Virus genome (UHGV): UHGV-1483403
DNA length: 26,593 nucleotides
Direction: 5' to 3' (one strand)
Source of the DNA: a virus
Below are positions 317 through 1,841 of this stretch, in pieces. The notes beneath the pieces are model-generated. The model worked only from the letters and a program-made list of their open reading frames with translations, searched no databases and was not told where the DNA came from. The first letter of the stretch is position 1. Each line of letters opens with the position of its first letter. The position numbers and the translations under genes are program-made.

Positions 317-613
317 TCAGTCATTACTGATAGCGCCATAGCGTGAGCGGTAATTACGCAGGCGAGGGTCGATATATTCAGGGAAGTGGGTATATGTGGC
401 TTTGCGGAATGGTCGGATTGATGTCTGGTAAATTCGCTCGCGTTCTTCTTTCTCTGCAAGCCATATACAATGGCGAAATTCCTTTTCCTCTTTCGTTTCC
501 TGCGGTAGCGACATTATCCGGTCGTAGTTTTTTCTGAATTTATCCAGCACCTCCGATACGGAATTGCCGGAACAGCGGCGCGGGTCATCCGCACCATACT
601 GAGGCGCTGGCAT
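317..613 (-). CDS. hypothetical early-operon protein (98 aa)
   Basis: Track ORF; AGGAG Shine-Dalgarno 6-7 nt upstream of the ATG; lies immediately downstream of ssb in the same operon. No family recognised. Confidence 0.6.
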   Translation of the reverse strand: MPAPQYGADDPRRCSGNSVSEVLDKFRKNYDRIMSLPQETKEEKEFRHCIWLAEKEERERIYQTSIRPFRKATYTHFPEYIDPRLRNYRSRYGAISND

Positions 614-626
614 GATTTTCTCCTGA

Positions 627-1133
627 TTAAATTGCGTGAATAGCGTGACGAGGGAAGGGGAGAGTTACTGGTGCAAAAGGTATATCGTCGTCAAAATCCA
701 TCGGAGGTTCGTTGTGTTGTGCTGGTGATGATTGCTGCTGTGGCTTCTGTGATTGCCTGCTGGCTGCTTGTTGTTTGCTGTCGCCAATGCCGCCAAGCAT
801 TTGCATCACGCCATTAATTCCGACATGAACCTCGGTTGTGTAACGGTCTTGCCCTGACTGGTCTTTCCACTTTCTGGTTCTCAGCATTCCCTCGAAATAA
901 ATCTGATCACCTTTTTTCACATACTGCCCCACGACCTCAGCCAGTTTCCCGGATACAGCAACACGATGCCATTCAGTCAATTCCTTTTGCTCGTCAGTAT
1001 TTTTATCTCGCCATTGTTCTGACGTGGCTATTGTCAGGTTAGCGAACGCTGTTCCTGATGGTGAGTATCGAACTTCCGGGTCTTGTCCTACCCGACCAAG
1101 GATAATCACCTTATTTACGCCTCTGCTTGCCAT
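627..1133 (-). CDS. ssb: single-stranded DNA-binding protein (SSB) with a 15-residue extension past the canonical DDDIPF tail
   Basis: Track ORF; OB-fold SSB N-terminal region ([23 protein letters not shown]...), Gln/Pro-rich linker, acidic tail ...[11 protein letters not shown] followed in frame by [15 protein letters not shown] before the TAA stop. Confidence 0.9.
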
Positions 1134-1841
1134 TTATGCCGCCTGTTTTAGTTCGTTAACTCTGATGTTCATTACCTGAACGCATTTAGCCTGCGCCTCC
1201 TCGTTGCCAGCCATTAATTGCCAGTCACGCTGATAACGCTCGATGAGTTTTTTCTTGTCAGTTTCTGTTGACGCATAATCGCTGAAGTCTTTCAGGATTT
1301 GTTCGCAGTCAACCGATGGAGATTTCTGGTTGGTATTTTCTGGTGATGGTTTGTTATCTGATGCTGGGATTGCCCATCCCGGCAGCGATGGAGGGAGCCA
1401 GTAAAATCCTGTTCCATCCTTCAGTTTTGCCCTGTGCCACCCCTGCTTTTTATCGAGAGATGTTTGTGCGAAACCTTCCTCAAGGTTATACAGATACCGA
1501 CCGATTCCCCATTGAACGGCAGCGCGCTTCATTGCACCGGAACGACCACCTTTGACGGCTTCTACCTGCGTGTTTTCAGCAGCATCCCATTTGGTTACCC
1601 ATTCGGAATCAATCTTTATTGATATGCCGCATTCAACTCCGCCGTTGTTGGGAATATCGCGGTATTCATTGCGCCATCCTGCTTTGCCGCAAACATCGTC
1701 CAGGCGTTTCATGATTGCCCGGTTCGTGACATAAGCCAGCACCATAGCCCACACCTTGCCATCGCGTGTTTTACCGCTTTGCTGTATTCGCCATTCGATA
1801 TCTTCAGGGCTGAATGGCTCATCGAATTTATTCAAATCCAT
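1134..1841 (-). CDS. single-strand annealing recombinase, Rad52/Rad22-like (SSAP)
   Basis: Track ORF; motif AMKRAAVQWGIGRYLY resembles the Rad52-family signature; sits directly upstream of ssb, a typical SSAP-SSB module; GAGGTGA Shine-Dalgarno upstream. Confidence 0.65.
   Translation of the reverse strand: MDLNKFDEPFSPEDIEWRIQQSGKTRDGKVWAMVLAYVTNRAIMKRLDDVCGKAGWRNEYRDIPNNGGVECGISIKIDSEWVTKWDAAENTQVEAVKGGRSGAMKRAAVQWGIGRYLYNLEEGFAQTSLDKKQGWHRAKLKDGTGFYWLPPSLPGWAIPASDNKPSPENTNQKSPSVDCEQILKDFSDYASTETDKKKLIERYQRDWQLMAGNEEAQAKCVQVMNIRVNELKQAA

What the first reader, a model, noticed from the sequence alone, without database searches (positions are those of the whole stretch)
627..1133. SSB whose canonical C-terminal tip DDDIPF is followed by 15 extra residues
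In bacterial and most phage SSBs the protein ends at ...DDDIPF and the free terminal Phe carboxylate is part of the docking motif for partner proteins (for example exonuclease I, RecQ, PriA, the chi subunit). Here the reading frame continues as [21 protein letters not shown] before the stop, so the tip would be internal. This could reflect a lost stop codon or assembly error, or a phage SSB that binds ssDNA but is uncoupled from host SSB-interactome partners.
Basis: partly seen in the sequence, partly recalled or inferred. Interest (0 to 1): 0.45.

Follow-up and report, generated by a model that had tools for sequence, protein, structure and literature searches.

The report
Phage SSB with a capped tip
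This prophage's single-stranded-DNA-binding protein keeps the usual partner-docking tip (DDDIPF) but follows it with a conserved 15-residue "cap", a feature shared by many phage, plasmid and ICE replication proteins but rare in the chromosomal SSB genes sampled, so mobile elements probably use it to change which proteins their SSB recruits.

Summary
Window 627-1133 (-) encodes a 168-aa OB-fold SSB ending [21 protein letters not shown].

It is not a lost stop codon or an assembly error. The same junction occurs in 269 of 5,426 complete E. coli genomes and in many phages. Of the 120 closest SSB clusters, 112 carry an extension and 111 of those are exactly 15 aa. Codon analysis shows purifying selection on the cap (pN/pS 0.26, against 0.19 for the OB fold) and very strong selection on the now-internal tip (0.025).

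A broader form, DDDIPF-AP[IV]GLQ[YH]..., ends unrelated SSB-like proteins and one primase/helicase of Vibrio, Klebsiella, Proteus and large E. coli phages, and of plasmids and ICEs. Of 80 SSB loci sampled one per species, 70 end at IPF.

In close relatives (Sf6, Huey) an HNH-type endonuclease cassette sits exactly at the tip|cap junction. There the SSB ends at IPF* and the nuclease carries the cap.

Published SSB+Gly and SSB-GFP data show that capping abolishes chi, DnaG and ExoI binding. My best reading is a composite docking peptide that blocks canonical host docking and creates a new, still unidentified, interaction. No description was found in the searchable literature.

The parts
627..1133 (-). 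ssb gene (168 aa plus stop) of a P22-like/lambdoid prophage recombination module
   Evidence: ORF. Pfam SSB E=3e-36. PHROG 44 'single strand DNA binding protein' E=9e-66. 56% identical to E. coli SSB. 100% identical DNA in E. coli BR1220, annotated ssb.
822..1118 (-). OB-fold ssDNA-binding/tetramerisation domain (residues 6-104)
   Evidence: Pfam match to residues 6-104. AF2 block-mean pLDDT is about 77-92 over residues 11-110, with the expected strands and one helix.
708..791 (-). Short Q/S/P-rich disordered linker (about residues 115-142)
   Evidence: AF2 pLDDT <50 for residues 115-160. The alignment to EcoSSB has a 25-residue gap in the linker.
675..707 (-). Canonical SSB-Ct tip [11 protein letters not shown] (residues 143-153), internal in this protein
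   Evidence: Sequence. Identical to the EcoSSB tip. pN/pS = 0.025 across 84 unique capped genes, with pS = 0.69.
630..674 (-). The 15-residue cap [15 protein letters not shown] (residues 154-168)
   Evidence: 111 of 112 extended SSB clusters have exactly 15 residues. P2 and L5 are invariant; F/Y7, R9, H10 and I/L15 are nearly so. pN/pS = 0.26, and some alleles carry 5-7 synonymous and no non-synonymous changes. The broader form AP[IV]GLQ[YH]... occurs on other proteins.
672..677 (.). Tip|cap junction (TTT|GCA): the point where an HNH endonuclease cassette is inserted in close relatives (empty site here)
   Evidence: In Sf6, Huey, N7, CurroJimenez and IME10, ssb ends IPF* and is followed by an HNH gene ending ...[18 protein letters not shown]. 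14 of 15 E. coli-type canonical-ending loci show this. 60 E. coli genomes carry the HNH|cap junction.
1134..1841 (-). Rad52/Rad22-like single-strand annealing protein; its stop overlaps the ssb start (TAAATG)
   Evidence: Pfam Rad52_Rad22 E=5e-26. PHROG 1097 E=3.5e-130.
317..613 (-). abc2 (P22-type anti-RecBCD protein 2), 13 nt downstream of ssb
   Evidence: Pfam Anti-RecBCD_p2 E=3.5e-61.

Best explanation
The gene is an intact, functional phage SSB whose C-terminus is a two-part peptide: the canonical acidic tip ([11 protein letters not shown]), followed directly by a conserved 15-residue cap ([15 protein letters not shown]).

Shown: the cap is an old, selected feature. It is constant in length, always abuts the Phe, and is shared by SSBs of prophages, virulent phages, plasmids and ICEs of gamma-proteobacteria. 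In its more general form, DDDIPF-AP[IV]GLQ[YH]x3-4-hydrophobic end, it also ends unrelated SSB-like proteins and a phage primase/helicase. Among chromosomal SSB loci sampled one per species, it is essentially absent.

Inferred mechanism: the amide bond after Phe removes the free alpha-carboxylate that host SSB-interacting proteins (chi, DnaG, ExoI and others) need. The phage SSB can therefore coat ssDNA without recruiting host nucleases, helicases and restart proteins through the standard pocket. At the same time, tip plus cap together form a longer linear docking motif for a different, conserved partner. That partner is not identified. Candidates are a replisome hub such as the beta clamp or a polymerase, by analogy with T7, where the SSB and the helicase-primase share one C-terminal tail.

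In some near-identical phages, a free-standing HNH-type endonuclease cassette has been inserted just 3' of the Phe codon. This gives the SSB a canonical free tip and leaves the cap codons as the 3' end of the nuclease ORF.
For: Real and widespread:
- Identical protein or junction in HK75, mEp235, mEpX2, epsilon34, g341c, CP-1639 and HZ41.
- 269/5,426 E. coli genomes.
- 112/120 nearest SSB clusters from Klebsiella, Citrobacter, Enterobacter, Kluyvera, Pluralibacter, Phytobacter and Salmonella.
- Diverged caps in Tatumella, Mixta, Xenorhabdus, Brenneria, Providencia and others.

Protein-level selection:
- Tail pN/pS 0.26, OB fold 0.19, tip 0.025.
- Substitutions are conservative: V/I/L/A, F/Y, H/Y, R/K, I/L.

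Modular unit:
- A tip+cap profile finds it on PHROG 44, 743, 2544, 4477 and 3284 proteins, and the PHROG matches to those proteins stop at IPF, before the cap.
- Read directly on vB_Ec-G1 and PHB05 SSB-like proteins, Vibrio phage and plasmid SSBs, and the Klebsiella phage VLCpiM5b primase/helicase, and on mEp554 and I29.
- 122 phage records and 62 plasmid records match >=80% of a consensus tip+cap.

Mobile-element bias: 70 of 80 species-level SSB loci end canonically. The 8 capped ones have phage or ICE neighbours such as AAA_24, ERF and DUF3577.

Capping blocks canonical docking: SSB+Gly loses chi and DnaG binding and complements poorly. SSB-C-term-GFP loses ExoI binding and appeared dominant negative when expressed from a plasmid.

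The cap belonged to ssb, not to the nuclease:
- HNH homologues elsewhere end just after ...NKPIY with unrelated tails.
- AF2 models the nuclease at pLDDT 94, but its last ~14 residues only at ~55.
- HNH ORFs at other ssb loci likewise run into whatever DNA follows the Phe codon.
Against: - No partner for the cap was identified, and no binding was tested.
- The cap is not essential. Close relatives do well with an uncapped SSB plus HNH (Sf6, Huey), and some related prophage SSBs have neither cap nor HNH (L203, L212, L237, L240).
- If the cap merely masked the tip, the extreme conservation of the tip would be unexplained. If the tip still works through the usual pockets, the SSB+Gly data say it should not.
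- Synonymous diversity in the cap (pS 0.26) is lower than in the OB fold (0.60), so part of the conservation among E. coli phages reflects recent spread or a DNA-level constraint.
- AF2 gives the cap only low confidence, about 55, with two short strands.
- The pairwise pN/pS sums are not corrected for phylogeny.
Confidence: 0.55

Rival explanations
1. Cleavable pro-peptide or degron. The cap is removed, exposing a normal free DDDIPF tip at the right time, or it is a C-terminal degradation tag that keeps the phage SSB short-lived. The tip stays conserved because it is the active form.
For: The tip is under very strong purifying selection although internal (pN/pS 0.025). The cap always starts immediately after Phe with A/S-P. 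The cap ends in a hydrophobic C-terminus (...AIHAI...YAL...HCF) of the general kind recognised by C-terminal degron readers such as ClpX (MuA ...RRKKAI, ssrA ...LAA; my own knowledge, not tested). Phages tolerate the uncapped state.
Against: No protease site or processing is known for F|A-P. Processive AAA+ proteases would not stop precisely after Phe. A simple degron would not need the conserved N-terminal half of the cap (AP[IV][GT]L[QP][FY]), nor a fixed length of 15.
Confidence: 0.17
2. Intramolecular or inter-tetramer module. The cap folds as a small beta-hairpin that packs on the OB fold or on a neighbouring SSB tetramer. This would tune ssDNA-binding mode or cooperativity, or hold the tip in an autoinhibited state until ssDNA is bound.
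For: AF2 predicts two short strands (156-159 and 164-167) with higher pLDDT (~55) than the linker (~32-44). The residue pattern alternates hydrophobic and polar. [quoted passage not shown]
Against: The same cap is attached to proteins with quite different bodies: PHROG 2544, 4477 and 3284 proteins and a primase/helicase. That is hard to reconcile with docking on one particular OB surface. The AF2 confidence is low.
Confidence: 0.13
3. Neutral scar. The extension arose when an HNH endonuclease gene between ssb and abc2 was deleted, fusing ssb in frame to the last 14 codons of that gene. It persists only because it is harmless.
For: The 14 residues are identical to the C-terminus of the Sf6/Huey HNH protein. 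Deletion products of this region are common: SSB-HNH chimeras P0011 and P0014, HNH-exonuclease chimeras, and the phiKp_30 remnant. The junction is identical in all capped E. coli-phage alleles, which fits a single event.
Against: HNH homologues outside this site lack the tail. The cap exists, in diverged form but at the same length, in genera and protein families where no such HNH is adjacent. pN/pS is 0.26, with alleles that differ only synonymously. HNH ORFs elsewhere also read into the local flank.
Confidence: 0.04
4. DNA-level element. The 45 nt are conserved as a nucleic-acid signal (homing-endonuclease target, recombination linker between modules, or leader for abc2), and the peptide is incidental.
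For: The 46-nt block is 100% identical in 24 of 26 phage records although the flanks differ by 10-25%. pS in the cap is less than half that of the OB fold. Endonuclease genes cluster at this site.
Against: Outside the E. coli/Salmonella phage pool the DNA varies freely at synonymous sites while the peptide is kept. No Rfam, promoter or terminator signal overlaps it. In epsilon34 and mEp235 the block is followed by an exonuclease gene, not abc2.
Confidence: 0.06
5. Sequencing or assembly artefact, or a private mutation that destroyed the stop codon.
For: None beyond the unusual end of the protein.
Against: Identical sequence in independent complete genomes and isolated phages.
Confidence: 0.01

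Closest known systems
E. coli SSB and its SSB-Ct interaction hub (PF00436 family)
   Same: OB fold, disordered linker and an identical [11 protein letters not shown] element. 56% identity overall.
   Different: The tip is not C-terminal: 15 conserved residues follow it. The linker is 25 residues shorter, and F60 of the OB fold is replaced. It is encoded in a phage recombination module next to a Rad52-like annealase and Abc2.
Engineered SSB+Gly and SSB-C-terminal-GFP (Naue et al. 2011, 2013; Dubiel et al. 2020)
   Same: The Phe177 carboxylate is blocked by added residues. Those proteins lose chi, DnaG and ExoI binding and are impaired or dominant negative in vivo.
   Different: Those are laboratory constructs with arbitrary additions. 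Here the addition is natural, sequence-conserved, fixed in length and under selection.
Phage T7 gp2.5 (SSB) and gp4 (helicase-primase) acidic C-terminal tails ending in Phe, which both bind T7 DNA polymerase (own knowledge)
   Same: One C-terminal peptide type shared by a phage SSB and a phage primase/helicase. Here tip+cap ends SSBs and the VLCpiM5b primase/helicase.
   Different: In T7 the aromatic residue is the last residue. There is no sequence similarity to the cap. The partner here is unknown, and lambdoid phages have no polymerase of their own.
HK620 SSB-Sak4 pair (Hutinet et al. 2018, PMC5928155)
   Same: A phage SSB in a lambdoid Rec module whose last residues dock the cognate annealase.
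   Different: The HK620 SSB ends NDYPPF, with a free Phe and no cap. Capped SSBs occur next to at least three different recombinase families (Rad52-like, ERF, AAA_24), so one cognate annealase is unlikely to be the partner.
Free-standing homing endonuclease genes of phages (for example T4 seg/mob genes; own knowledge). This applies to the HNH cassette in relatives.
   Same: Presence/absence polymorphism at one precise site between otherwise near-identical genomes. Sequence changes in the flanking target on the cassette-bearing allele. Frequent decay and chimeras. Other nuclease families at the same hotspot.
   Different: Cleavage and homing were not demonstrated. The ORF has no Pfam model. It ends in codons taken from the target gene. 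The Genome Res 2025 survey treats such nuclease genes as possible Rec-module members.

Membership tests
Bacterial-type SSB (PF00436) | OB-fold ssDNA-binding domain | tested here: met
   Pfam E=3e-36 over residues 6-104. Confident AF2 OB fold.
Bacterial-type SSB (PF00436) | Conserved aromatic ssDNA-contact residues (EcoSSB W40, W54, F60, W88) | tested here: inconclusive
   The alignment keeps the three Trp (W41, W55, W89), but F60 aligns with Ser61. Which residues contact ssDNA is from my own knowledge.
Bacterial-type SSB (PF00436) | Disordered linker followed by the acidic DDDIPF motif | tested here: met
   Residues 115-142 have low pLDDT. [11 protein letters not shown] is identical to EcoSSB.
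Bacterial-type SSB (PF00436) | DDDIPF is the extreme C-terminus, with a free Phe carboxylate | tested here: not met
   15 residues follow Phe153. The same holds in 112 of the 120 nearest clusters.
SSB-interactome hub (binding of chi, DnaG, ExoI, PriA, RecQ through the tip) | Partner binding through the tip pocket | not testable with these tools
   Only precedent is available: SSB+Gly and SSB-GFP lose binding.
Free-standing HNH homing endonuclease (cassette in relatives, absent from the window) | beta-beta-alpha-Me / HNH catalytic fold | tested here: inconclusive
Free-standing HNH homing endonuclease (cassette in relatives, absent from the window) | Insertion polymorphism at a defined site, with an altered target on the cassette-bearing allele | tested here: met
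   Junction counts are 269 (empty) against 60 (filled) E. coli genomes.
Free-standing HNH homing endonuclease (cassette in relatives, absent from the window) | Cleaves the cassette-less allele and is copied into it | not testable with these tools
   Needs in vitro cleavage and co-infection assays.
Beta-clamp-binding motif (QL[SD]LF / QLxLx[LF]; own knowledge) | Gln at position 1; hydrophobic at 2; Leu at 4; Leu/Phe at the last position | tested here: inconclusive
   P-[VI]-[TG]-L-[PQ]-[FY] fits positions 2, 4 and 6, but position 1 is an invariant Pro, not Gln. This is pattern resemblance only; no binding test was possible.
T7-type shared C-terminal tail on SSB and helicase-primase | The same terminal peptide on both proteins of one phage, binding one partner | tested here: inconclusive
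   Tip+cap is found on SSB-like proteins and on one primase/helicase, but both were not shown in the same genome and the partner is unknown.

The most novel reading that the evidence does not exclude
DDDIPF-AP[IV/VT][G/T]L[Q/P][Y/F]...hydrophobic-COOH is a previously unrecognised linear motif, specific to mobile elements, that converts the universal SSB-Ct tip into a different docking signal. Phages, plasmids and ICEs would attach it to their SSBs, SSB analogues and primase-helicases for two purposes: to keep host SSB-dependent nucleases and helicases off their ssDNA, and to recruit one conserved host replisome or recombination hub (for example the beta clamp). A family of endonuclease cassettes that home to the tip-coding DNA would toggle the SSB between capped and uncapped states.
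Probability: 0.3. Interest if true: 0.85.

Novelty: new variant of a known kind. Interest (0 to 1): 0.68.

Why it matters
The free C-terminal Phe of SSB is treated as a fixed rule of bacterial DNA metabolism and is a drug target. A large, naturally selected class of SSBs that keep the tip perfectly conserved but bury it under a conserved cap raises several concrete questions:

- It would show how mobile elements separate their own ssDNA transactions from the host's SSB interactome.
- It predicts at least one unknown cap-binding partner or a processing step.
- It gives a simple sequence marker that helps tell mobile-element SSBs from chromosomal ones.
- It bears on recombineering, where phage annealases are paired with SSBs.

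The capped and uncapped states occur naturally in near-isogenic phages (HK75 against Huey; HZ41 or CP-1639 against Sf6), so the question can be tested directly.

Tried and rejected
- Searching with a 40-aa C-terminal query in the search for homologous proteins returned only fragments. It showed other linkers carrying the same tail but was not useful for measuring distribution.
- The genome-contig scan returned mostly chromosomal ssb genes. These served as the canonical-tip control rather than as relatives.
- I considered that the cap's partner is the adjacent annealase. I rejected this as the general answer because capped SSBs sit next to Rad52-like, ERF and AAA_24 recombinases and also in ICE contexts.
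- I considered Abc2 as the partner. Abc2-like genes often follow ssb, but only one of six divergent downstream proteins scanned gave even a weak Abc2 hit, below Pfam's cut-off. Virulent phages and plasmids with the cap were not seen to carry abc2 next to the capped gene.
The RF01097 hit at 925-950 is far below threshold.
- Literature searches for the peptide strings and for C-terminally extended phage SSBs found no description. The library lacks most subscription papers, including Casjens et al. 2004 on Sf6. That record's note on gene 26 ('14 contiguous amino acids identical to E. coli SSB') shows the shared 14-mer was seen but not interpreted.
- AF2 complex prediction of the cap with candidate partners was not possible with the tools.

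Full report
**1. The observation**

The window holds one ORF at 627..1133 on the minus strand (ATG start, 168 aa, stop TAA at 627-629). It ends ...[28 protein letters not shown]. Pfam SSB matches residues 6-104 at E=3e-36. The gene upstream (1134-1841) is a Rad52/Rad22-type annealase and the gene downstream (317-613) is P22-type Abc2. The tip DDDIPF is residues 148-153 (window 675-692) and the extension is residues 154-168 (window 630-674). The protein is 56% identical to E. coli SSB, with an identical [11 protein letters not shown] element and a linker 25 residues shorter. The region is the early-left recombination module of a lambdoid/P22-like prophage. The DNA is 100% identical to a prophage of E. 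coli BR1220.

**2. It is not an artefact**

- The same extended SSB is annotated in isolated phages HK75, mEp235 and mEpX2, in epsilon34 and g341c (about 90% nucleotide identity), and in CP-1639, HZ41 and ECP1 (76-79% identity).
- A 30-mer spanning the Phe|Ala junction is present in 269 of 5,426 complete E. coli genomes.
- Of the 120 closest 90%-identity SSB clusters in a 5.8-billion-protein collection, 112 carry an extension and 111 of those are exactly 15 residues, in 28 sequence variants. They come from Klebsiella, Citrobacter, Enterobacter, Kluyvera, Pluralibacter, Phytobacter and Salmonella.
- P2 and L5 of the cap are invariant. F/Y7, R9, H10 and I/L15 are nearly invariant, and the other changes are conservative.
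- More distant 15-16-residue versions occur in Tatumella, Mixta, Xenorhabdus, Brenneria, Scandinavium, Chimaeribacter and Providencia elements.

**3. Selection**

I compared 84 unique capped genes by pairwise Nei-Gojobori counts.

| Region | pN/pS | pS | pN |
|---|---|---|---|
| Cap | 0.26 | 0.26 | 0.07 |
| OB fold | 0.19 | 0.60 | 0.11 |
| Eight tip codons | 0.025 | 0.69 | 0.017 |

Some alleles encode the identical cap with 5-7 synonymous substitutions and no replacements. So the cap is kept as a peptide, and the tip, although internal, is the most constrained part of the protein. These pairwise sums are not corrected for phylogeny. The lower pS of the cap reflects the near-clonal 46-nt block shared by E. 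coli and Salmonella phages, which is 100% identical in 24 of 26 phage records.

**4. The link with an endonuclease gene**

- In Sf6, Huey, N7, IME10 and CurroJimenez the SSB ends canonically (DDEIPF* or DSDIPF*). It is followed by a 155-159-aa Cys/His-rich gene whose last 14 residues are [14 protein letters not shown], encoded by the same 46 nt.
- Two SSB lineages each exist in both states. In the IMG/VR relatives, 14 of 15 E. coli-type canonical-ending loci with downstream sequence have this gene with the tail, and every SSB without it carries the tail itself.
- The HNH|cap junction is present in 60 E. coli genomes, where PGAP leaves the gene unannotated.

The direction of the event can be inferred from four observations:

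- The nuclease family has 77 hits. Outside this site its members end soon after ...NKPIY with unrelated short tails.
- AF2 models the protein at pLDDT 94, except for the last ~14 residues at ~55.
- Family members without the tail also sit immediately after a canonical-tip ssb (P0056 and P0004). Their 3' ends are the DNA that follows the ssb stop codon in cassette-free relatives (L212 and L203).
- Cassette-bearing alleles carry a distinct haplotype over the last ~27 nt of ssb.

Other nuclease families occupy neighbouring junctions. In mEp554 and the Vequintavirus I29, related nucleases follow capped genes. The tip-coding DNA therefore looks like a homing hotspot. Decay products are common: SSB-HNH and HNH-exonuclease chimeras, and the phiKp_30 remnant.

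**5. The cap is a general mobile-element module**

- A 34-column profile of tip+cap, searched against 1.84 billion representative proteins, found 34 hits. Several are proteins with other bodies, ending ...DDDIPF-AP[IV]GLQ[YH]....
- The carriers belong to PHROG 44 and 743 (SSBs) and to PHROG 2544, 4477 and 3284 (function unknown). In the PHROG matches to those carriers, the aligned stretch stops at IPF and the cap lies beyond it.
- A tblastn search with a consensus tip+cap matched 122 phage records and 62 plasmid records over >=80% of its length. The matching records as a whole come from Escherichia, Vibrio, Salmonella, Klebsiella, Yersinia, Aeromonas, Erwinia, Proteus, Providencia and others.
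- Read directly from the DNA:
  - Stephanstirmvirinae SSB-like proteins end [23 protein letters not shown].
  - A Vibrio phage SSB ends ...IPFAPIGLQYPALLNCM*.
  - A Vibrio plasmid SSB ends ...IPFAPIGLQHPALVHCMG*.
  - The 687-aa primase/helicase of Klebsiella phage VLCpiM5b ends ...DDDTPFAPIGLQYAKHAIYVI*.
- By contrast, 70 of 80 SSB loci sampled one per species end at IPF. The 8 capped ones lie in phage or ICE contexts.

[15 protein letters not shown] is thus the enterobacterial-prophage variant of a wider motif.

**6. How it probably works**

Shown experimentally by others:
- One extra glycine after Phe177 of EcoSSB abolishes detectable binding to chi and to DnaG, and the mutant complements only under slow growth (PMC3045619, PMC3632105).
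- GFP fused to the C-terminus abolishes ExoI binding, and the fusion appeared dominant negative when expressed from a plasmid (PMC7293020).

Inferred: the 15-residue cap prevents docking of the tip in the standard pockets.

A bare mask does not explain four facts: the sequence conservation of the cap, its fixed length, its strict adjacency to Phe, and the extreme constraint on the tip. I therefore favour a composite linear motif read by some other conserved partner.

The partner is unlikely to be the cognate annealase. Capped SSBs sit beside Rad52-like, ERF and AAA_24 recombinases and also in ICEs. The presence of the module on a primase/helicase recalls T7, where gp2.5 and gp4 share an acidic C-terminal tail that binds the polymerase (own knowledge).

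The segment P-[VI]-[TG]-L-[PQ]-[FY] resembles the hexameric beta-clamp-binding motif QLxLx[LF] at positions 2, 4 and 6 but not at position 1. This is a lead recalled from memory, not a test.

AF2 leaves the linker disordered and gives the cap two short strands at low confidence.

The rivals are a cleavable pro-peptide or degron, an intramolecular or cooperativity module, a neutral deletion scar and a DNA-level element. They are weighed in the rivals section; the last two are largely excluded.

**7. What is known**

- The 2025 survey of lambdoid Rec modules defines an 'HK75' module type (anti-RecBCD + SSB + annealase). It states that these SSB-1 proteins have not been studied experimentally, and the passages returned by my search of it do not mention the extension (PMC12315714).
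- The HK620 SSB, whose last six residues dock Sak4, ends with a free Phe (PMC5928155).
- The Sf6 GenBank record notes that gene 26 shares 14 contiguous residues with an 'E. coli SSB', so the shared 14-mer was seen but not interpreted.
- Full-text searches for the peptide strings found nothing. The library is incomplete for subscription journals.

**8. Verdict**

The artefact reading is refuted. The 'uncoupling' reading is plausible but incomplete.

What is there is a conserved cap on the SSB tip that is strongly biased towards mobile elements, plus an endonuclease cassette that toggles it in close relatives. I class it as a new variant of a known kind. Interest is fairly high because it contradicts a textbook rule for SSB tips and can be tested directly with natural near-isogenic phages.

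Noticed in passing
L005:2051-2530 (Sf6 gp26), L002:2045-2512 (Huey); absent from the window (empty site at window 672-677): A 155-159-aa Cys4/His nuclease family (PHROG 2340, no Pfam model) sits immediately 3' of the ssb tip in many lambdoid phages. Its ORF ends in whatever DNA follows the Phe codon. PGAP leaves it unannotated in 60 complete E. coli genomes.
   Followed up: yes
L246:518-2581 (Klebsiella phage VLCpiM5b): A 687-aa DNA primase/helicase ends ...DDDTPFAPIGLQYAKHAIYVI*, the same tip+cap module as on SSBs. The next gene is a DNA polymerase.
   Followed up: partly
L173:2068-2595, L174:1068-1535, L171 (downstream of ssb): Unrelated HNH_3-type endonuclease genes are inserted between the Rad52-like gene and ssb, or after ssb. 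The recombination module is a hotspot for several nuclease families.
   Followed up: partly
P0011, P0014, P0024, P0053, P0060, P0063; L010:1442-1546 (phiKp_30): There are chimeric ORFs (SSB N-terminus fused to the HNH C-terminus; HNH fused to the exonuclease) and a 34-codon HNH remnant that still carries the tail. These point to recurrent deletions in this region.
   Followed up: partly
window 627-674 and the same block in L001-L012: The 46 nt encoding the cap are 100% identical in 24 of 26 phage records although the flanking ssb, HNH and downstream genes differ by 10-25%. Synonymous diversity in the cap is less than half that of the OB fold. This could reflect co-conversion around the cassette site or recent spread.
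   Followed up: partly
window 951-953 (residue 61): EcoSSB Phe60, an ssDNA-contact residue (own knowledge), aligns with Ser in this SSB and with Ser in most related prophage SSBs (...HRVVISGKLAE...).
   Followed up: no
window 1131-1139; L196, L172 upstream genes: The genes upstream of ssb (Rad52-like, ERF, AAA_24) all end ...AA* with the stop overlapping the ssb start (TAAATG). Several HNH family members also end ...AA*, but in the one such member whose locus was read (P0056, L237) the gene lies downstream of ssb, so the shared ending is unexplained.
   Followed up: no
L242:11732-12641 (E. coli BR1220): In the genome that matches the window exactly, the prophage integrase lies next to sbcB (exonuclease I, an SSB-tip binder). 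This is probably coincidental.
   Followed up: no
window 925-950 (-): A weak Rfam hit to RF01097 (frameshift site) scores 21.6 bits against a gathering score of 43, E=0.4. I treated it as chance.
   Followed up: no
window 1134-1841 (-): The epsilon34 genome paper notes that the equivalent annealase shares only its C-terminal 56 residues (86% identity) with P22 Erf. That is a domain swap which may mark a shared interaction domain in this module.
   Followed up: no
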